Origin: Candidatus Nomurabacteria bacterium
GTDB taxonomy: Bacteria > Patescibacteriota > Minisyncoccia > Phycocordibacterales > UBA9973
Assembly: GCA_023267435.1 (NCBI GenBank)
Contig: JAHFNH010000004.1
Span: forward strand, 1,236 to 65,235
Reading direction: 5' to 3'
Length of the DNA: 64,000 nucleotides
Part shown: positions 10,143 through 61,804 of the stretch, piece after piece
Layout: every line of letters begins with the position of its first letter
Numbering within the stretch: position 1 is the stretch's first letter
Translations under genes and position numbers: made by a program
The notes under the pieces: generated by a model
Databases searched by the model: none
Seen by the model: only the letters and a program-made list of their open reading frames with translations
What the model was told of the DNA's origin: nothing

Positions 10143-11387
10143 ATGCAAACTCAAGAGTTAAAAAAATATAAAATTCCGGATAAGCCTGGAGTATATTTTT
10201 TCCTTAAAAATAAGGATATTTTTTATATTGGCAAAGCGACATCTTTAAAAGATAGAATAAAAAGTTATTTTAGTAATGATTTGTTTAATATGCGCGGACC
10301 TTTATTGGTGGATATGATAACCAAAGCGACAAGTATTAAATGGGTTGAAACTGATTCTGTTTTGGAAGCTCTGATTCTTGAGGCAAATTTTATCAAGAAA
10401 CATCAACCGATTTACAATACCAAAGAAAAGAGTGATAAGAGTTTCAATTATGTTTGTATTACAAGGGACACCTTACCTAAGGTAATTGTTGTTCGAGGAA
10501 AAGATTTAAATAAAAAACAAAAGAATTTTGGAGCCTTCGCCCTCGGAGGCATAAGGCAGGGAACCCACGACTCTGAAAATTCTTTTGTTTTTTACGATAA
10601 AGTTTTCGGCCCATATCCCAATGGTTCACAATTAAAAGAAGCACTAAAAATAGTGCGTCGCATTTTTCCATTTTTAGATGAAAAGAGTAAAAATAATTAT
10701 GAATTTTATAGACAATTAAAACTTGTTCCTGATGAGGGTAACTATAAGAAAAACATAAAAAATATAAAGTTATTTTTTGAAGGTAAAAAGAATAAAATCT
10801 TAAAAAATTTGGAAAAAGAAATGAGGGATTGTGCAAAAAGACATGAGTTTGAGAAAGCAGGGGAAATAAAAAAACAAATTTTTGCATTAAAACATATTCA
10901 AGATATTTCTTTAATTAAAGAAGATAAGATTACTAAAGAATTTTCTAAAGAAAATTTTCGCATTGAAGCTTATGACATAGCGCATATGAGCGGGGAAAAT
11001 ATGGTTGGCGTGATGGTGGTCATTGAAGATGGGGAAGTGAATAAAAAAGAATACCGGAAGTTTAAGATAAAAAATTACTCAAGTTCCAATGACGTTGGTG
11101 CATTAAAAGAAGTATTAGAGCGCAGGTTTGCTCATACAGAATGGATATACCCTAAACTAATGGTGATAGACGGAGGTAAGGCTCAGTTGAATATCGTTAA
11201 AAAATTCCAAAATGAAGTTGGTTTAGCAATACCAGTTGTGTCTGTGGTGAAAGACGAAAGACATAGGCCTAAAGCTATTTTAGGTGTTTCATCTGGTATC
11301 TCAGAGTCTTTGATACTTTTAGCTAATTCTGAAGCTCATAGATTTGCAATTTCGTATCATAGGAAATTACGTGGGAAGATTATATAA
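10143..11387 (+). CDS. uvrC: excinuclease ABC subunit C (UvrC), truncated form lacking the C-terminal HhH domain
   Basis: GIY-YIG motif (GVYFFLKNKDIFYIGKATSLKDRIKSYF). UvrBC-interaction motif (FEKAGEIKKQIFALKHIQ). RNase H-like endonuclease domain (RIEAYDIAHMSGENMVGVMVV...EAHRFAISYHRKLRGK). The ORF ends right after this domain. Confidence 0.8.
   Translation: MQTQELKKYKIPDKPGVYFFLKNKDIFYIGKATSLKDRIKSYFSNDLFNMRGPLLVDMITKATSIKWVETDSVLEALILEANFIKKHQPIYNTKEKSDKSFNYVCITRDTLPKVIVVRGKDLNKKQKNFGAFALGGIRQGTHDSENSFVFYDKVFGPYPNGSQLKEALKIVRRIFPFLDEKSKNNYEFYRQLKLVPDEGNYKKNIKNIKLFFEGKKNKILKNLEKEMRDCAKRHEFEKAGEIKKQIFALKHIQDISLIKEDKITKEFSKENFRIEAYDIAHMSGENMVGVMVVIEDGEVNKKEYRKFKIKNYSSSNDVGALKEVLERRFAHTEWIYPKLMVIDGGKAQLNIVKKFQNEVGLAIPVVSVVKDERHRPKAILGVSSGISESLILLANSEAHRFAISYHRKLRGKII
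10518..10587. repeat. palindromic element (AT-rich inverted arms caaaagaatttt, GC-rich core) inserted in frame in uvrC
   Basis: Arms caaaagaattttggag / ctctgaaaattcttttg are inverted complements. The core gccctcggaggc is itself a perfect palindrome. Related copies at 40132-40219 and 60207-60268. Confidence 0.75.
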
Positions 11388-12383: not shown

Positions 12384-12519
12384 CGTAGAATTGTTTTTAT
12401 CTGTGGCGGGTTATCGCACTCACATAGGCACATATGTTGGAGGTTAGCCATAACCCGCCTCAAATGAAAGCAATTTTTAAAAAAACTACATTAAAGTAAA
12501 ACTTAATGTAGTTTTTTTA
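12384..12519 (+). ncRNA. candidate small RNA (~135 nt) with a 10-bp long-range stem (ggcgggttat...ataacccgcc) and an intrinsic terminator
   Basis: The promoter-to-terminator unit has no ORF. The inverted repeat at 12406-12460 encloses a 35-nt loop. Terminator ctacattaaagtaaaacttaatgtag plus T-run at 12486-12519. Confidence 0.35.
12486..12519 (+). terminator. Rho-independent terminator
   Basis: ctacattaaagt-aaaa-cttaatgtag followed by a 7-T run. Confidence 0.7.
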
Positions 12520-21875: not shown

Positions 21876-22946
21876 ATGAAAAACAATAAAGGTTTTATAG
21901 GTATGGGTTTGATATTAGCAATTATTGCTGTATTAATTATCGGTGGCTGTGCGTATTACGTAGGAAAGAATTCGAATACTACTTCTAAAAATACAAATGT
22001 AAATAATTCTCAACAGGAAAATCAAAATACTGTTACAAATACTCCTGTGCAAAATAATTCAACATCTGTTGTTGTGGGTGGTGCACAAATTAATACTAGC
22101 ACTTCTTCATCACAGCCATGTGCGAAAGGTGATACACCTTGGATAAAAGTTATTTCTCCAAATGGTGGGGAAACATTTACTGCTGGTCAACAAATTACTG
22201 TAAAGTGGACGAGTTGTAATGTAACACCACCAGTTAGTCTTATGCTTGTTAAACACGATTCATCTGTAGCATATACACAAAGTGAAGGACAAAGTGATTA
22301 TGCAGGGTTTACTCTTGGTGGTTTTAATTCTAACACTGGAACACCAGATGATGGTATTCAACAAATAACATTACCTAGTAGTTTAAATACTAATTTAACA
22401 TTAGGTCAGCATTATTTTATTATAGTTGCTGGTCAAGACAATCCATCTTTCGGACCAGGATTTAGTCCAAGAGATTTGTCGGACAATTTATTTACAATAA
22501 ATAATTCAATAAAGGATGAACCGAAGATAAAACCATTTGGAGGAGTTTCTGCTCTTGCACCAGTGGTTATTTATAAGCCAAAGAACAATAATTATGCTAA
22601 TTTGGTTTGGGTTAATTTAGATTCTAGTAAAACACAAATAACATCTTTTCCTGGTCCAGGTGATGTAAGAAGTCCAGTCTCTTTACATGGTGGTTATTTT
22701 GTTAAGAGTTTTGGTGGAAAGGATTCAGTTCCTTTAAATTTAATAATTTCAACATATGCCACGTATACTTCCACTTTATCTCTTGCACAGATGTTTAATT
22801 TAATTTTGGATATGAATCCAATACTTGAATTATATGATTGTACAAATAGTTACCACCAAGATTTTATTGCAGAGGATGTTAAGGCTTCTAATTTAAATAC
22901 CTATATTGATAACAATCAACTATCTGTTAAGTGTGTACAATATTAA
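21876..22946 (+). CDS. secreted pilin-like paralog 3
   Basis: First 24 nt identical to paralog 1 (atgaaaaacaataaaggtttta). Shares the PWIKVISPNGGETFTAGQQITVKWTSCN module. Confidence 0.55.
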   Translation: MKNNKGFIGMGLILAIIAVLIIGGCAYYVGKNSNTTSKNTNVNNSQQENQNTVTNTPVQNNSTSVVVGGAQINTSTSSSQPCAKGDTPWIKVISPNGGETFTAGQQITVKWTSCNVTPPVSLMLVKHDSSVAYTQSEGQSDYAGFTLGGFNSNTGTPDDGIQQITLPSSLNTNLTLGQHYFIIVAGQDNPSFGPGFSPRDLSDNLFTINNSIKDEPKIKPFGGVSALAPVVIYKPKNNNYANLVWVNLDSSKTQITSFPGPGDVRSPVSLHGGYFVKSFGGKDSVPLNLIISTYATYTSTLSLAQMFNLILDMNPILELYDCTNSYHQDFIAEDVKASNLNTYIDNNQLSVKCVQY

Positions 22947-22996
22947 CTAATCAAATTAAAAAACCACCCGTATGGGTGGTTTTTTAATTTGATTAG
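22947..22996. terminator. bidirectional Rho-independent terminator (perfect 50-nt palindrome)
   Basis: ctaatcaaattaaaaaaccaccc-gta-tgggtggttttttaatttgattag between convergent genes. Confidence 0.8.
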
Positions 22997-23004
22997 TATT
23001 TAGA

Positions 23005-39644: not shown

Positions 39645-40868
39645 ATGGTTAAATCAAACAAAATATATATGGATTACGCCAGTGGCGCTTGTTCAGATCC
39701 AGCCAACCCGGGGGCTATCCATGAATTTGGAGTAAAAGCAAAGAAAAGATTGAATGAAGCAAGAGAAGAAATTGCTGGAATTTTAGGCGCGCATTCTGAT
39801 GAAATAATTTTTACCTCTGGAGCAACTGAAAGTAACAATTTGGTGATTTTAGGTGTTTTGAAAAAGTATCTTCAAAATTTTTCCCATTTGCCACACATTG
39901 TAACTACCAACATAGAACACGCATCCGTATTGGAAGTTTGTAAATATTTAGAGAAAACAAAACAAGCAGAGATAACTTTTGTGCCAGTTGAATCAAACGG
40001 AATAGTTTCTCCAGAAAAAATAAAAAAAGCGTTGAAAAAAAATACTATTTTAGTTTCTGTGATGTATGCGAATAATGAAATTGGCACAATCCAACCAATA
40101 CGAGAAATTGCAAAAGAAATTAGGCACTTTAGGAAAACGAAAAATTCAGCAGAATTTTCTCGGGTCCTCGGAAGGGGGTCAGCCAGACCACTCGAAAATT
40201 CTCTGAATTTCTCGTTTCCCATTTTTCATACTGATGCTACTCAGGCGATAAATTATTTGCCGATCAATGTCGAGAAGCTCGGTGTTGATTTGTTATCCTT
40301 CAATGGATTAAAAATTTACGGACCGAGCGGTGTTGGAGTTTTGTATGAAAAAAGGAATACGCCCATCAGTAGTATTATGTTTGGTGGTGATCAAGAAAGA
40401 GGATTGAGACCCGGAACAGAAAATATTAATGGAATTATTGCTTTGGCTAAAGCTTTGAAAATTACTGAACAAATAAAAGATAAAGAAGTAAAACGCTTAA
40501 CCAAGCTTCGAGATTATTTTACTAAAAAATTATTAAAATTTAATTTTGTTGTTAATGGTAGTTTGGAAAATAGATTACCCAATAATATAAATATCACTAT
40601 TCCAAAAACCCCGAGTGATCTTTTAGTAATAGAACTTTCAGCAAAGGGAATTATGGCTTCTGTAAAAAGCGCTTGTAAGTCTGGCGATGAAAAATCTTCT
40701 CATGTCATACAAGCTATTCGTGAAGCGAAAACAGGGAAGTCTTTGTTGGATAAAGAAGTAGACGGATCTATTAGATTTTCTCTGGGCAGACAGACGACTA
40801 AGGCTGATATTGATTACACAGTTAAAGCTTTGTCTCAAATTTTGACTAAACTAAAAAAATGGTACTAA
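39645..40868 (+). CDS. cysteine desulfurase (IscS/NifS, class V aminotransferase) with an internal palindromic-element insertion
   Basis: TSGATESNN, HASVLE, FHTDATQA, SFNGLKIYGP (PLP-Lys) motifs. An extra ~30-aa segment (FRKTKNSAEFSRVLGRGSARPLENSLNFSFP) sits between the conserved EIRH and FHTDATQ. Confidence 0.8.
   Translation: MVKSNKIYMDYASGACSDPANPGAIHEFGVKAKKRLNEAREEIAGILGAHSDEIIFTSGATESNNLVILGVLKKYLQNFSHLPHIVTTNIEHASVLEVCKYLEKTKQAEITFVPVESNGIVSPEKIKKALKKNTILVSVMYANNEIGTIQPIREIAKEIRHFRKTKNSAEFSRVLGRGSARPLENSLNFSFPIFHTDATQAINYLPINVEKLGVDLLSFNGLKIYGPSGVGVLYEKRNTPISSIMFGGDQERGLRPGTENINGIIALAKALKITEQIKDKEVKRLTKLRDYFTKKLLKFNFVVNGSLENRLPNNINITIPKTPSDLLVIELSAKGIMASVKSACKSGDEKSSHVIQAIREAKTGKSLLDKEVDGSIRFSLGRQTTKADIDYTVKALSQILTKLKKWY
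40132..40219. repeat. palindromic element (arms ggaaaacgaaaaattcagcagaattttctcg / cgaaaattctctgaatttctcgtttcc, GC-rich core) in frame inside the cysteine desulfurase gene
   Basis: 27 of 31 arm positions are complementary. The core cctcggaag...ccactcgaaaattct resembles the uvrC copy. Confidence 0.75.
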
Positions 40869-59801: not shown

Positions 59802-60950
59802 TTGATAAAGCAAAAGAAAACTATATTTGTCGGTATGTCGGGTGGGGTGGATTCTTCTGTTTCCGCTGCTATTTTAAAAGACCAAGGATATGATGTCGTT
59901 GGGGTTTTTATTCGTACCTGGCATCCTGATTTTTTGGTTTGTAATGAAGAAGACGAACGCCGCGACGCTATGCGCGTCGCGGCGCATTTAGATATTCCAT
60001 TTCTGACTTTCGATCTTGCAGATGTATATAAAAAAGAAGTGGCTGATTATATGATTTCTGAATATAAGGCAGGACGCACTCCAAACCCAGATGTGATGTG
60101 TAATAAAGAAGTGAAGTTTGGCGCTTTTCTAAAAAAGGCACTAGAGATGGGTGCGGATTATGTGGCGACAGGGCATTATGCGCAGGTTTCATTAAATAAA
60201 AATTTAAAAGATTTTGGAGCCTTCGCCCTTGGAGAATTAAAGAGAGGGGGCTCTAAAAATCTTTCAAATTTTTCTTTAATTAAAGGCAAAGACCCTTCCA
60301 AAGATCAATGTTATTTTTTGTGGACATTAAAACAAGAACAACTAAAACATATTTTATTTCCAGTGGGACATTTAAATAAAACAGCTGTGAGAAAACTGGC
60401 GAAGAAATATAAATTACCAGTAGCAGAAAAGAAAGATAGTCAGGGTATATGTTTCTTGGGTGATATTGATTTGAAAGATTTTTTGAAACACTATATTAAA
60501 GAAAAAAGAGGGAAAATTTTGCTAGAAAATGGTGAAGAAATTGGATTCCATGACGGTGCGGTTTTCCATACTCTCGGTGAACGTCATGGTTTTACAATTA
60601 CCAAAAAAGGTCCGAATGATAGTGCGTATTATATTGTCGGAAAAGACGTAAAGAAAAATATTTTAGTTGTTTCGCAGAACCCCTCCCAACCCTCCCCTTA
60701 TCAAGGGGAGGGCGAGGGTGGGGTAATTAAAAAATTAGATAATGTGAATTTTATTTCAGGTATTCCAAATGAAAATAAAAATTATACAGCGCAGATAAGA
60801 TATCACGGAGAATTTTTAGATTGTAAAATTAAAATTACTGGAAAAACAACCGTTGAAGTAATTTTTGAAAAACCAGTATTAGTAGCGGGAGGTCAATCGG
60901 TAGTCTTTTATGATAAAGATATTTGTCTTGGCGGGGGAGTAATTATTTAG
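59802..60950 (+). CDS. mnmA: tRNA-specific 2-thiouridylase MnmA, carrying two in-frame palindromic-element insertions
   Basis: PP-loop VGMSGGVDSSV. CNKEVKFGAFL…ATGHYA, DPSKDQCYFL motifs. Extra segments FGAFALGELKRGGSKNLSNF and PSQPSPYQGEGEGG. Confidence 0.85.
   Translation: MIKQKKTIFVGMSGGVDSSVSAAILKDQGYDVVGVFIRTWHPDFLVCNEEDERRDAMRVAAHLDIPFLTFDLADVYKKEVADYMISEYKAGRTPNPDVMCNKEVKFGAFLKKALEMGADYVATGHYAQVSLNKNLKDFGAFALGELKRGGSKNLSNFSLIKGKDPSKDQCYFLWTLKQEQLKHILFPVGHLNKTAVRKLAKKYKLPVAEKKDSQGICFLGDIDLKDFLKHYIKEKRGKILLENGEEIGFHDGAVFHTLGERHGFTITKKGPNDSAYYIVGKDVKKNILVVSQNPSQPSPYQGEGEGGVIKKLDNVNFISGIPNENKNYTAQIRYHGEFLDCKIKITGKTTVEVIFEKPVLVAGGQSVVFYDKDICLGGGVII
60207..60268. repeat. palindromic element (arms aaaagattttggagcc / ggctctaaaaatcttt) in frame inside mnmA
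   Basis: Shares ttttggagccttcgccct with the uvrC copy. Inverted AT-rich arms around a GC-rich core. Confidence 0.75.
60679..60724. repeat. GC-rich palindrome (cccaaccctcccc-ttatcaa-ggggagggcgagggtgggg) in frame inside mnmA
   Basis: Same arm motif (accctcccc / ggggaggg..gggtgggg) as repeat B at 24975-25064. Sharp GC spike within an AT-rich gene. Confidence 0.7.
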
Positions 60951-61069: not shown

Positions 61070-61804
61070 ATGAAAAATGGAACCGATTCCCAAAAGCCGA
61101 GCCTGTCAGACAGAATACAGCAACTCGGATCACTTGCTGGATTTATCGTAGATTTTCTAGCAACAATTTTATCCTATGAACAAGTCAAATATTGGCTTGA
61201 ACATAAAACAGAATTAAAGAAAAATCTTATAGAAGCTTTTAAAATTGTAGATGAGTATGCTGATACCCGCGAAGAATGGCAAGAATTTTACAAAATAAAA
61301 TTTGGTTGGGATGTAGATTTTAGTCGAGTAATTATTCCAACAATGCCAATAGAAGGCAAATGGAGATTACTTATTCTTCCGAGAAGAATGGGACTCGATC
61401 TTGCTTTTGAAGCTTGCACAAAACTTTTTAAAACATGTAGGTATAATGATAACTTGGATGGTGCAGTTACAGAAAATATTCGCACAACTAGTGACCATTA
61501 TGCAGTGTGGGTACGAGATGAAATAGAACCCGATAAAGAATTTTTAGGAAAATCCACTCGTCAAGCGGATCCTGATATGAAAATCGGTGTTACTCTACTA
61601 GAAAGAATTATTTTTGAAATTAAGTATTTTACCGAAACAGGTAAGCATCTTGATGTAAAAGGATTAACTTTTTGTAGCGGTTCTCGGCCTTCCGTGGGTC
61701 TTGTGCCGTGCGCGGATTGGTACGGTGACAAGTTCAGGGTGGACTGGAGCGGCCTAGACAATTCTGATTCGGGCTACGGTATCCGTTCAGCAGTTGCTCT
61801 TTAG
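61070..61804 (+). CDS. hypothetical protein (244 aa), preceded by a canonical AAAGGAGG Shine-Dalgarno; GC-rich 3' end
   Basis: Only strong SD in the window (aaaaaaaggaggacaaaccATG). The 3' third is notably GC-rich. No family recognised. Confidence 0.5.
   Translation: MKNGTDSQKPSLSDRIQQLGSLAGFIVDFLATILSYEQVKYWLEHKTELKKNLIEAFKIVDEYADTREEWQEFYKIKFGWDVDFSRVIIPTMPIEGKWRLLILPRRMGLDLAFEACTKLFKTCRYNDNLDGAVTENIRTTSDHYAVWVRDEIEPDKEFLGKSTRQADPDMKIGVTLLERIIFEIKYFTETGKHLDVKGLTFCSGSRPSVGLVPCADWYGDKFRVDWSGLDNSDSGYGIRSAVAL

What the first reader, a model, noticed from the sequence alone, without database searches (positions are those of the whole stretch)
60207..60268. mnmA carries a copy of the AT-arm/GC-core palindromic element
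Between the conserved GHYA and DPSKDQCYFL motifs of MnmA lies an extra FGAFALGELKRGGSKNLSNF. It is encoded by inverted arms aaaagattttggagcc / ggctctaaaaatcttt around a core that shares ttttggagccttcgccct with the uvrC copy. This is the third member of the family in 64 kb, and all three are in frame in essential genes.
Basis: partly seen in the sequence, partly recalled or inferred. Interest (0 to 1): 0.75.

Follow-up and report, generated by a model that had tools for sequence, protein, structure and literature searches.

The report
Degenerate mobile hairpin cassette inside mnmA
The extra 25 residues in this MnmA come from a worn copy of a roughly 100-base hairpin repeat that is common in Patescibacteria, sits between genes or in frame inside housekeeping genes, and is swapped quickly at a few tolerant protein loops.

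Summary
The palindrome in mnmA spans 60187-60284 (29-nt arms, 90% complementary). It shares an exact 18-mer, orientation and reading frame with a copy in uvrC (10498-10607).

A metagenome scan found at least 120 further stretches, and about 126 unique copies were analysed. These have a roughly 45-nt core that is about 95% conserved. The arms differ at every locus but stay complementary.

- About 70% of copies fill whole intergenic spacers.
- About 25% lie in frame and in sense inside MnmA, LeuRS, UvrC, RsmH, a CCA/HD-type enzyme and an FAD oxidase-like protein.
- The same core nucleotides are read in two frames, so the constraint is on the nucleic acid, not the peptide.

The mnmA copy is the most degenerate one detected. 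It lacks the ACCCACGAC block.

In 120 Nomurabacteria-like MnmA orthologues, two loops are hot spots. They are empty, hold this element, or hold one of a dozen or more other hairpin inserts. Orthologues 90-95% identical already differ there. AlphaFold gives both loops pLDDT below 50.

Best reading: a Rickettsia-palindromic-element-like selfish hairpin cassette, translated as a disordered loop. The mobility mechanism and any RNA function are unresolved. No Rfam match or literature report was found.

The parts
59802..60950 (+). mnmA (tRNA 2-thiouridine synthase) ORF, 382 aa, host gene of the element
   Evidence: ORF list. PDB MnmA hits at E about 1e-85. 100% match to P0001, and Nomurabacteria/Paceibacterota orthologues carry Pfam PF03054, PF20259 and PF20258.
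60187..60284 (+). Hairpin element, degenerate copy of the 'FGAFALG' family. It encodes roughly residues 129-161 (SLNKNLKDFGAFALGELKRGGSKNLSNFSLIK). The net insertion is about 25 aa relative to empty-site orthologues.
   Evidence: Inverted repeat. Fold at -30.5 kcal/mol, z = -3.85. Covariance-model hit 60184-60287, 61.6 bits, E 1e-11. nhmmer score 32.9 bits against about 70 for typical copies. AF2 pLDDT below 50 for residues 133-155.
60187..60215 (+). 5' arm (AT-rich)
60212..60235 (+). Retained 5' half of the conserved family core (TTTTGGAGCCTTCGCCCTTGGAG)
   Evidence: Exact 18-mer shared with uvrC. Alignment to the family model.
60236..60255 (+). Diverged 3' half of the core. The family's GGGRACCCACGAC block is missing, and the sequence partly mirrors the 5' half (GGAGCC / GGCTCT).
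   Evidence: Covariance-model alignment shows a 7-nt gap and mismatches. Read directly from the sequence.
60256..60284 (+). 3' arm (AT-rich)
10498..10607 (+). Intact family copy, in frame in uvrC (ORF 10143-11387). Same orientation and same reading frame as the mnmA copy (LNKKQKNFGAFALGGIRQGTHDSENSFVF).
   Evidence: (93.6 bits)
40128..40225 (+). Distant relative, or a separate family with the same architecture. In frame in a class-V aminotransferase / cysteine desulfurase ORF (39645-40868). Arms GGAAAACGAAAAATTCAGCAGAATTTTC / GAAAATTCTCTGAATTTCTCGTTTCC.
   Evidence: (25.4 bits, E 0.007). Its core was not found in the other held loci.
60679..60724 (+). Unrelated GC-rich hairpin (NPSQPSPYQGEGEGGV) occupying the second MnmA hot spot. 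Other orthologues carry the FGAFALG element or other cassettes at this position.
   Evidence: (-34.8 kcal/mol). AF2 pLDDT below 50 for residues 297-306.

Best explanation
The insert is a decaying copy of a small, non-autonomous, mobile hairpin repeat of Patescibacteria (Paceibacteria / Nomurabacteria-like genomes). It resembles the Rickettsia palindromic elements in behaviour.

The unit is about 100-110 nt. It has a conserved core of about 45 nt (consensus GAG CCTTCGCCCTCGGAGTCATAAGGACAGGGGACCCACGAC TC). The core is flanked by semi-conserved A/T-rich inner arms (AAAATTCAAAAAATTT / AAAATTTTTTAATTTT). Outside these are outer arms that differ at each locus but are complementary to each other.

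Copies land in the short spacers between genes, or in frame in tolerant surface loops of housekeeping proteins. In frame, they are transcribed and translated as a 24-30-residue disordered loop. In MnmA the tip of a beta-hairpin between GHYA and KDQ is one such tolerant site.

Shown: family membership, structure, genomic distribution, the nucleotide-level rather than peptide-level constraint, rapid gain, loss and replacement at the two MnmA hot spots, and the degenerate state of this copy.

Inferred: that it spreads as selfish DNA; that the arms are kept complementary by templating from the opposite arm or the upstream flank rather than by selection on each pair; and that this particular copy has no function of its own. 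The enzyme or process that moves the element is unknown.
For: Family and conservation:
- At least 120 metagenome stretches and 3 species-representative genomes carry the core.
- nhmmer finds 151 copies in 0.96 Mb of held Patescibacteria-like DNA. Only 12 deviate from the exact pattern, and the window's mnmA copy scores lowest.

Hairpin:
- P1 is 92.6% paired against 76.8% in shuffles.
- 493 cells have a change on both sides against 163 in shuffles.
- Slid controls give 40-60% pairing.

Behaviour like a mobile repeat:
- 88 copies are intergenic. They fill the spacer: the upstream ORF ends 26-43 nt before the core and the next ORF starts 29-47 nt after it.
- 30 copies are in frame in sense, at recurrent sites in MnmA, LeuRS, UvrC, RsmH, a CCA/HD-type enzyme and an FAD oxidase-like protein (host names other than MnmA and UvrC were assigned from the flanking peptide motifs, not from a family search).
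- Only 9% of intergenic copies are open in the frame used by 28 of 30 coding copies.
- Coding copies are enriched for the GCG-closing type (22/30 against 21/88) and the 38-nt core (15/30 against 2/88).

The peptide is not what is conserved:
- The same nucleotides are read as IGQGTHD or as KRTGNPRR, and as FLSLRPRS in LeuRS locus L104.
- Core identity is 86-100%, against 47-66% at third codon positions of the flanking mnmA sequence.

Turnover:
- Among 120 orthologues, site 1 is empty in 6 (21 aa from GHY to KDQ). Of the 111 that could be scored at both sites, 25 hold this family at site 1.
- The rest hold many other inserts.
- Orthologue pairs 90-95% identical share the same site-1 insert in 25% of cases. 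Below 90% the figure is 1-3%.
- Two mnmA alleles that are 97-100% identical elsewhere differ across the whole 105-nt hairpin.
- The other insert types examined are also hairpins at the DNA level.

Tolerance: AF2 gives pLDDT below 50 at residues 133-155 and 297-306, between beta-strands.

Known precedent: Rickettsia palindromic elements insert in frame into many unrelated genes (PMC10969869).
Against: - No transposase, target-site duplication or conserved terminal repeat was identified. The most conserved part is the centre rather than the ends, which is the reverse of a classical MITE.
- Copies within one genome have different outer arms, so simple copy-and-paste of the whole hairpin is not evident.
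- Copies are about 95% co-oriented with transcription, and a loop motif A-GGA-C is conserved although the search pattern did not require it. Both would also fit an RNA function.
- The core is far better conserved across genomes than a neutrally decaying repeat would be, unless turnover is fast.
- Translation of the insert is inferred from ORF continuity only.
Confidence: 0.62

Rival explanations
1. The element is a host-functional structured RNA module, for example an mRNA processing, stability or termination signal, or a protein-binding hairpin. It would act in the transcripts of many operons, and the in-frame copies would be the same module embedded in coding sequence.
For: Orientation is strongly biased with transcription. 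Flanking genes are (+,+) in 45 cases and (-,-) in 2, and there are 30 sense in-frame copies against 8 antisense overlaps, all with 107-315-aa ORFs whose reality was not checked. The core is near-invariant across genomes whose synonymous sites are close to saturated. The apical A-GGA-C is conserved. The long stem shows massive covariation. The element replaces the whole spacer between cistrons.
Against: On the sense strand, stem mismatches are mostly A.C (88) rather than G.U (35). The antisense strand folds better in 113 of 118 copies, by a mean of 7.4 kcal/mol. That is the opposite of what is expected for a sense-strand RNA structure. The inner helices show almost no informative variation. There is no Rfam family match on either strand. 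Copies are gained, lost and swapped for unrelated hairpins among near-identical strains, and the mnmA copy has lost half the core. A required signal would not behave this way.
Confidence: 0.22
2. The element is removed after transcription. It could be a small self-cleaving or spliced RNA, or it could act from an antisense transcript, so that the protein is not really interrupted.
For: The long stem brings the two flanks together. The core is conserved and folds into a multi-helix junction on the antisense strand. Patescibacteria are known for unusual introns (PMC13011429 abstract).
Against: 28 of 30 coding copies keep one open frame, while 91% of intergenic copies have stops in it. This shows selection for read-through translation. 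No ribozyme or intron family matches even at E up to 10. Element boundaries are not fixed relative to the flanks.
Confidence: 0.06
3. The extra residues are a lineage-specific functional loop of MnmA, selected at the protein level, and the DNA palindrome is incidental.
For: The insert is in frame, lies on the surface and is present in several orthologues.
Against: The same nucleotide core occurs in unrelated proteins and in intergenic DNA, and it is read in different frames. Close orthologues carry an empty site or unrelated inserts. The loop is predicted to be disordered.
Confidence: 0.03
4. The finding is an assembly or chimera artefact that creates a spurious shared 18-mer.
For: None beyond the a priori possibility in metagenome assemblies.
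Against: An identical MnmA protein is on record from three sources (ncbi, lgn, ena), on one contig of 75.7 kb. The element is found on more than 120 independent contigs from many studies, with conserved context.
Confidence: 0.01

Closest known systems
Rickettsia palindromic elements (RPE-1 to RPE-10; Ogata et al. 2000; reviewed in PMC10969869)
   Same: Both are short palindromic repeats (about 100-150 bp) in a small, AT-rich, reduced genome. Both have tens of copies, a large fraction of them inserted in frame into unrelated housekeeping genes. In both, the insert adds a peptide segment at positions compatible with the protein fold, and several families coexist.
   Different: The host phylum is different, and no sequence relationship was tested. 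Here the centre is the conserved part and the outer arms are unique to each locus. Coding copies use a specialised subtype. Copies at the same protein loop are exchanged between near-identical strains, whereas RPE copies are described (my own knowledge) as old and slowly decaying. Core identity between genomes is about 95%.
Classical bacterial MITEs (Correia, ERIC, RUP, Nezha and others)
   Same: Both are small, non-coding, hairpin-forming, multi-copy repeats, mostly intergenic and occasionally fused in frame to ORFs (PMC10969869).
   Different: MITEs are defined by conserved terminal inverted repeats matching a parent IS, plus target-site duplications. Here the termini vary and the centre is conserved, and no duplication or parent IS was seen.
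REP/BIME elements with RAYT (Y1 HUH) transposases; IS200/IS605-derived palindromic elements
   Same: Both are structure-defined, strand-specific hairpin repeats. Their orientation bias could follow from single-strand DNA intermediates, and the recognition features lie within an imperfect hairpin.
   Different: REPs are 20-40 nt, extragenic and tagged by GTAG or CGTC (PMC3733652 abstract). This element is about 100 nt, often lies within genes and has no such tag. No RAYT or TnpA gene was looked for systematically.
Coding palindromes in Nematomorpha mitochondrial genes (PMC6649704)
   Same: Both are long inverted repeats embedded in protein-coding genes and translated through both arms.
   Different: Those are gene-specific perfect repeats in organelle genomes, not a dispersed family with a shared core. 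Only the abstract was seen.

Membership tests
FGAFALG-type hairpin repeat family defined here (model R1) | Significant match to a covariance model built from 118 independent copies | tested here: met
   The mnmA copy scores 61.6 bits, E 1e-11, over the full model length. uvrC scores 93.6 bits.
FGAFALG-type hairpin repeat family defined here (model R1) | Complete conserved core (CCTTCGCCCT ... GGGRACCCAYGAC) | tested here: not met
   The 5' half is present. The 3' block is absent or rearranged. It is therefore a degenerate member.
Rickettsia palindromic elements (works-like comparison) | Dispersed palindromic repeat of about 100-150 bp with tens of copies per genome | tested here: inconclusive
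   The repeat is dispersed and about 105 nt. Density is about 2-4 copies per 100 kb on contigs holding several copies. No closed genome was counted.
Rickettsia palindromic elements (works-like comparison) | A large fraction of copies inserted in frame in unrelated ORFs, at structurally tolerant sites | tested here: met
   30 of 118 copies are in frame in sense. AF2 places the inserts in low-confidence loops.
Rickettsia palindromic elements (membership) | Sequence homology to an RPE family consensus; occurrence in Rickettsiales | not tested
   No RPE consensus was available in the tools. The hosts here are Patescibacteria, so membership is not claimed.
Classical MITE | Conserved terminal inverted repeats shared by all copies | tested here: not met
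   Outer arm columns show every pair type. Conservation rises towards the centre.
Classical MITE | Direct target-site duplication flanking the element | tested here: inconclusive
   None is apparent in the empty versus filled MnmA sites, but the boundaries are fuzzy.
REP / BIME | 20-40 nt extragenic palindrome with a GTAG or CGTC tag | tested here: not met
   The element is about 105 nt, a quarter of copies lie within genes, and no tag is seen in the consensus.
Any Rfam 15 RNA family, including self-cleaving ribozymes, introns and known Patescibacteria motifs | Covariance-model match at the gathering score, or at least a suggestive E-value | tested here: not met
   The window at gathering threshold gives only 5 tRNAs. 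Searches at E up to 10 on an intact coding copy and an intergenic copy give only generic long-hairpin (miRNA precursor) noise.
MnmA (host protein) | Full-length similarity to solved MnmA structures and the Pfam tRNA_Me_trans domains | tested here: met

The most novel reading that the evidence does not exclude
Patescibacteria may carry a dedicated hairpin-cassette system. An unknown trans-acting enzyme, or a new catalytic or processing RNA formed by the conserved core, would recognise the roughly 45-nt core. It would insert or exchange about 100-nt hairpins at A/T-tract sites, templating the outer arm from the neighbouring sequence. The result would be rewriting of intergenic spacers and of surface loops of essential enzymes on population time scales. 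This would be a new class of mobile element or RNA module rather than an RPE look-alike.
Probability: 0.25. Interest if true: 0.85.

Novelty: new variant of a known kind. Interest (0 to 1): 0.62.

Why it matters
In-frame palindromic repeats have been treated as a curiosity of Rickettsia. This result shows the same phenomenon in another lineage of tiny, reduced genomes, and in a more dynamic form.

- **Protein variation.** At least a dozen hairpin families compete for the same two loops of an essential tRNA-modification enzyme and differ between nearly identical strains. This explains part of the length variation and the 'insertions' seen in Patescibacteria proteins, which affect annotation, alignment and structure prediction.
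- **Strain markers.** The hot spots could serve as natural markers for strain tracking.
- **A testable question.** The core is conserved at about 95% across genomes, and the arm structure hints at hairpin-templated DNA synthesis. It becomes possible to ask what machinery moves such elements in organisms with very few known mobile-element enzymes.
- **A possible new RNA class.** If the core turns out to be a functional RNA, it would be a new and abundant RNA class that is absent from Rfam.

Tried and rejected
- **blastn-short of the two copies against the window.** It found no third close copy. The third member appeared only with the covariance model, and weakly.
- **The 18-mer scan of species-representative genomes.** It returned 60 loci, of which 57 were coincidental matches inside GC-rich genes of Verrucomicrobiota, Bacteroidota and others. 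The source genome is not among the representatives.
- **A viral contig scan.** It found nothing.
- **Rfam searches at permissive E-values.** They gave only miRNA-like hairpin noise.
- **Literature searches by sequence strings and by topic.** They found no description of this element.
- **A first crude count that favoured G.U over A.C.** It was an artefact of pairing across the internal loop. A proper arm-to-arm alignment reversed the result.
- **An alternative inner helix (GAGUCAUA / CACGACUC) suggested by antisense folding.** It is not kept in the GCG-type subfamily, so I dropped it.
- **Single-linkage clustering of insert peptides.** It merged families through the shared arm-encoded residues and gave no usable family count.
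- **A fuzzy-regex search.** It timed out.
- **P0020, the closest filled partner of an empty-site orthologue.** No DNA was available for it.
- **Intein, group I or II intron and CRISPR-repeat readings.** I considered and rejected these on size, open-frame continuity and the lack of any model match.

Full report
**1. What is in the window**

The ORF at 59802-60950 (+) is MnmA. It matches solved MnmA structures end to end at E about 1e-85. It is identical to a public protein found on a 75.7-kb contig, and its nearest relatives (66-78% identity) are labelled Candidatus Nomurabacteria, Paceibacterota or Minisyncoccia. The window has about 35% G+C.

The quoted arms and the extra peptide FGAFALGELKRGGSKNLSNF are present. 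The inverted repeat is larger than reported: 60187-60215 pairs with 60256-60284 (29 nt, 90%). It folds at -30.5 kcal/mol with z = -3.85.

This repeat and the uvrC copy (10498-10529 / 10576-10607) are the two longest inverted repeats in the 64 kb. The shared 18-mer occurs only at these two places, against 0.05 expected by chance. The two copies have the same orientation and the same reading frame:
- uvrC: LNKKQKNFGAFALGGIRQGTHDSENSFVF
- mnmA: LNKNLKDFGAFALGELKRGGSKNLSNFSL

**2. It is a large family**

An exact 18-mer scan of one genome per species gave three genuine copies, all in Patescibacteria-type low-GC contigs. One is in frame in LeuRS and two are intergenic. The other 57 hits were coincidental matches in GC-rich genomes.

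After de-duplication I analysed 126 copies. The consensus is:

[locus-specific arm] AAAATTCAAAAAATTTCTGAG CCTTCGCCCTCGGAGTCATAAGGACAGGGGACCCACGAC TCTTAAAATTTTTTAATTTT [complementary arm]

A profile search that does not depend on the pattern found 151 copies in 0.96 Mb of held Patescibacteria-like DNA. Only 12 of them deviate from the exact pattern. The conservation is therefore real and not imposed by the search.

The window's mnmA copy is the lowest-scoring of all. It keeps the 5' half of the core, lacks the GGGRACCCACGAC block, and its 3' half partly mirrors its own 5' half. The uvrC copy is intact.

A covariance model built from 118 copies also picks up a weak third hit at 40128-40225. It lies in frame in a class-V aminotransferase / cysteine desulfurase ORF and has the same arm-and-core layout but a different core. 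That core was not seen in the other loci.

**3. Structure**

The long stem is strongly supported:
- 92.6% of cells pair, against 76.8% in shuffles.
- 493 cells have a change on both sides, against 163 in shuffles.
- Pairing falls to 40-60% when partners are slid by 1-3 columns.
- The closing pair switches from A-U to C-G in 46 sequences.

The inner helices (UCG/CGA and CCCU.G/C.AGGG) are almost invariant and so carry no covariation information. A few variants are compatible with them, such as CCCUU with AAGGG, and G-C changing to U-A. An apical A-GGA-C is conserved although the search pattern left it free.

There is no Rfam 15 family match on either strand, even at E up to 10.

**4. Where copies sit**

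88 copies are intergenic and essentially make up the whole spacer. The upstream ORF ends 26-43 nt before the core, and the next ORF starts 29-47 nt after it. Flanking genes are co-oriented with the element in (+,+) 45 cases against (-,-) 2.

30 copies are inside long ORFs in sense. 28 of them are in one frame, at recurrent positions: MnmA (two sites), LeuRS, UvrC, RsmH, a CCA/HD-type enzyme and an FAD oxidase-like protein. I named the hosts other than MnmA and UvrC from conserved peptide motifs flanking the insert, not from a family search.

Only 9% of intergenic copies are open in that frame, because the consensus carries an in-frame TGA. Coding copies are enriched for a GCG-closing subtype and a 38-nt core.

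A 1-nt length difference makes the same nucleotides read as DIGQGTHD or as DKRTGNPRR. One LeuRS copy uses a third reading.

At MnmA site 1 the core is 86-100% identical between genomes, whereas third codon positions in the flanking mnmA sequence are 47-66% identical. The constraint therefore acts on the nucleic acid and not on the peptide.

**5. MnmA has two hypervariable hot spots**

In 120 orthologues, two segments vary wildly. One lies between GHYA and L.KG.DPSKDQ. The other lies between NIL.VSQ and NTNWI.

Site 1 is 21 residues long from GHY to KDQ when empty, in six orthologues (for example GHYAQNKKNSLVKGKDPSKDQ). It is about 45 residues with this element. Of the 111 orthologues that could be scored at both sites, 25 hold this element at site 1 and 14 hold it at site 2. 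Elsewhere the two sites hold at least a dozen other recognisable inserts.

The window's MnmA carries the degenerate element at site 1 and an unrelated GC-rich hairpin (60679-60724, -34.8 kcal/mol) at site 2. DNA recovered for several orthologues shows that the other insert types examined are also hairpins.

Turnover is fast:
- Orthologue pairs at least 95% identical outside the hot spots usually share inserts.
- At 90-95% identity, only 25% share the site-1 insert and 0% share the site-2 insert.
- Below 90% identity the figure is 1-3%.
- Two alleles that are 97-100% identical in nucleotide sequence elsewhere differ completely over about 105 nt at site 1. Each carries a different hairpin, and the total length is the same.

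AlphaFold2 with a 36-sequence alignment gives mean pLDDT 76.5. It places residues 133-155 and 297-306 in loops with pLDDT below 50, between beta-strands.

**6. How it most likely works**

Shown: a dispersed, multi-copy, structure-defined element. It is tolerated between genes and in disordered protein loops, it is gained, lost and replaced rapidly, and it includes a coding-competent subtype.

This is the behaviour described for Rickettsia palindromic elements (PMC10969869). I rate a selfish, RPE-like hairpin cassette as the best explanation, at about 0.6. The mnmA copy would be a decaying relic that is simply translated as a loop.

Inferred: the arms are regenerated by templating rather than preserved pair by pair. 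Three observations point that way.
- At site 2, the 5' arms of three unrelated families run into the conserved Gln codon of VSQ, and the 3' arm is its inverted copy.
- At site 1, the filled allele keeps the empty-site upstream sequence as its 5' outer arm and adds an inverted copy downstream.
- The window copy has been partly palindromised.

The L188/L189 swap includes the arms, so whole-hairpin exchange also happens. This could occur by recombination through the conserved gene flanks.

**7. What does not fit**

Orientation is tied to transcription, yet stem mismatches are A.C (88) rather than G.U (35) on the sense strand. The antisense strand folds better in 113 of 118 copies. This argues against a sense-RNA structure under selection. 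It would fit a DNA-level or bottom-strand intermediate, or selection to weaken the hairpin in the mRNA.

The centre-conserved, ends-variable layout is the reverse of a MITE. No mobilising gene was identified.

A host RNA function (about 0.2) and post-transcriptional removal (about 0.06) remain possible. A protein-level function and an artefact are effectively excluded.

**8. Novelty**

I found no Rfam family and no paper describing this element. The paper library is incomplete, so earlier mention cannot be ruled out.

I class it as a new variant of a known kind. It is an RPE-like in-frame palindromic repeat, but in a different phylum, with a different architecture and with striking hot-spot cassette turnover.

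Noticed in passing
window 60679-60724: A GC-rich hairpin (-34.8 kcal/mol) encodes NPSQPSPYQGEGEGGV at the second MnmA hot spot. Similar 'PSPxxGEGxxG' peptides occupy the same loop in other orthologues (P0009, P0014, P0043, P0076, P0095, P0097). It is probably another repeat family.
   Followed up: partly
window 40128-40225: An in-frame hairpin insert in a cysteine desulfurase-like gene has the same arm-and-core layout but a different core. It matches the family model only weakly (25.4 bits), and its core was not found in the other held loci.
   Followed up: partly
window 61070-61804: A 244-aa ORF with no Pfam match lies between mnmA and the MgtC-like gene. Relatives have RNase_T, MnmA and MgtC directly adjacent, so this ORF looks like a strain-specific insertion.
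   Followed up: partly
window 10143-11387: UvrC is only 414 aa. It has GIY-YIG, UVR and the RNase H-like endonuclease domain, but no C-terminal helix-hairpin-helix region was detected.
   Followed up: no
window 12389-12475: An intergenic inverted repeat with 29-nt arms (83% complementary) around a GC-rich centre has no Rfam match. It could be a small RNA or another hairpin element.
   Followed up: no
window 22946-22997: A perfect 24-nt palindrome (ACTAATCAAATTAAAAAACCACCC / GGGTGGTTTTTTAATTTGATTAGT) looks like a bidirectional terminator. It scores weakly with the family model on both strands simply because it is a long AT-rich hairpin.
   Followed up: no
L094 7809 and 7920: Two nearly identical element copies lie in tandem, 111 nt apart, which suggests local duplication of the whole unit.
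   Followed up: no
L148 12193, L174 1753, L140 7900: A core sub-variant closes with GAAAC...GUUUC and has UGCG / CACAC in place of CCUUCG / CACGA. This may be compensatory change in the inner helix.
   Followed up: no
L001-L060 (most): The 18-mer TTTTGGAGCCTTCGCCCT also occurs in one conserved context in many Verrucomicrobiota, Bacteroidota and Planctomycetota genomes. It is unrelated to the element and serves as a caution for motif-only searches.
   Followed up: partly
L184 (P0031), both MnmA hot spots: The same three-hairpin GC-rich cassette, about 100 nt long (KEGVGGGNSRNNHLAFGTPPQRGGE), is present at both hot spots of one gene. This shows that other families also insert repeatedly into the same protein.
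   Followed up: partly
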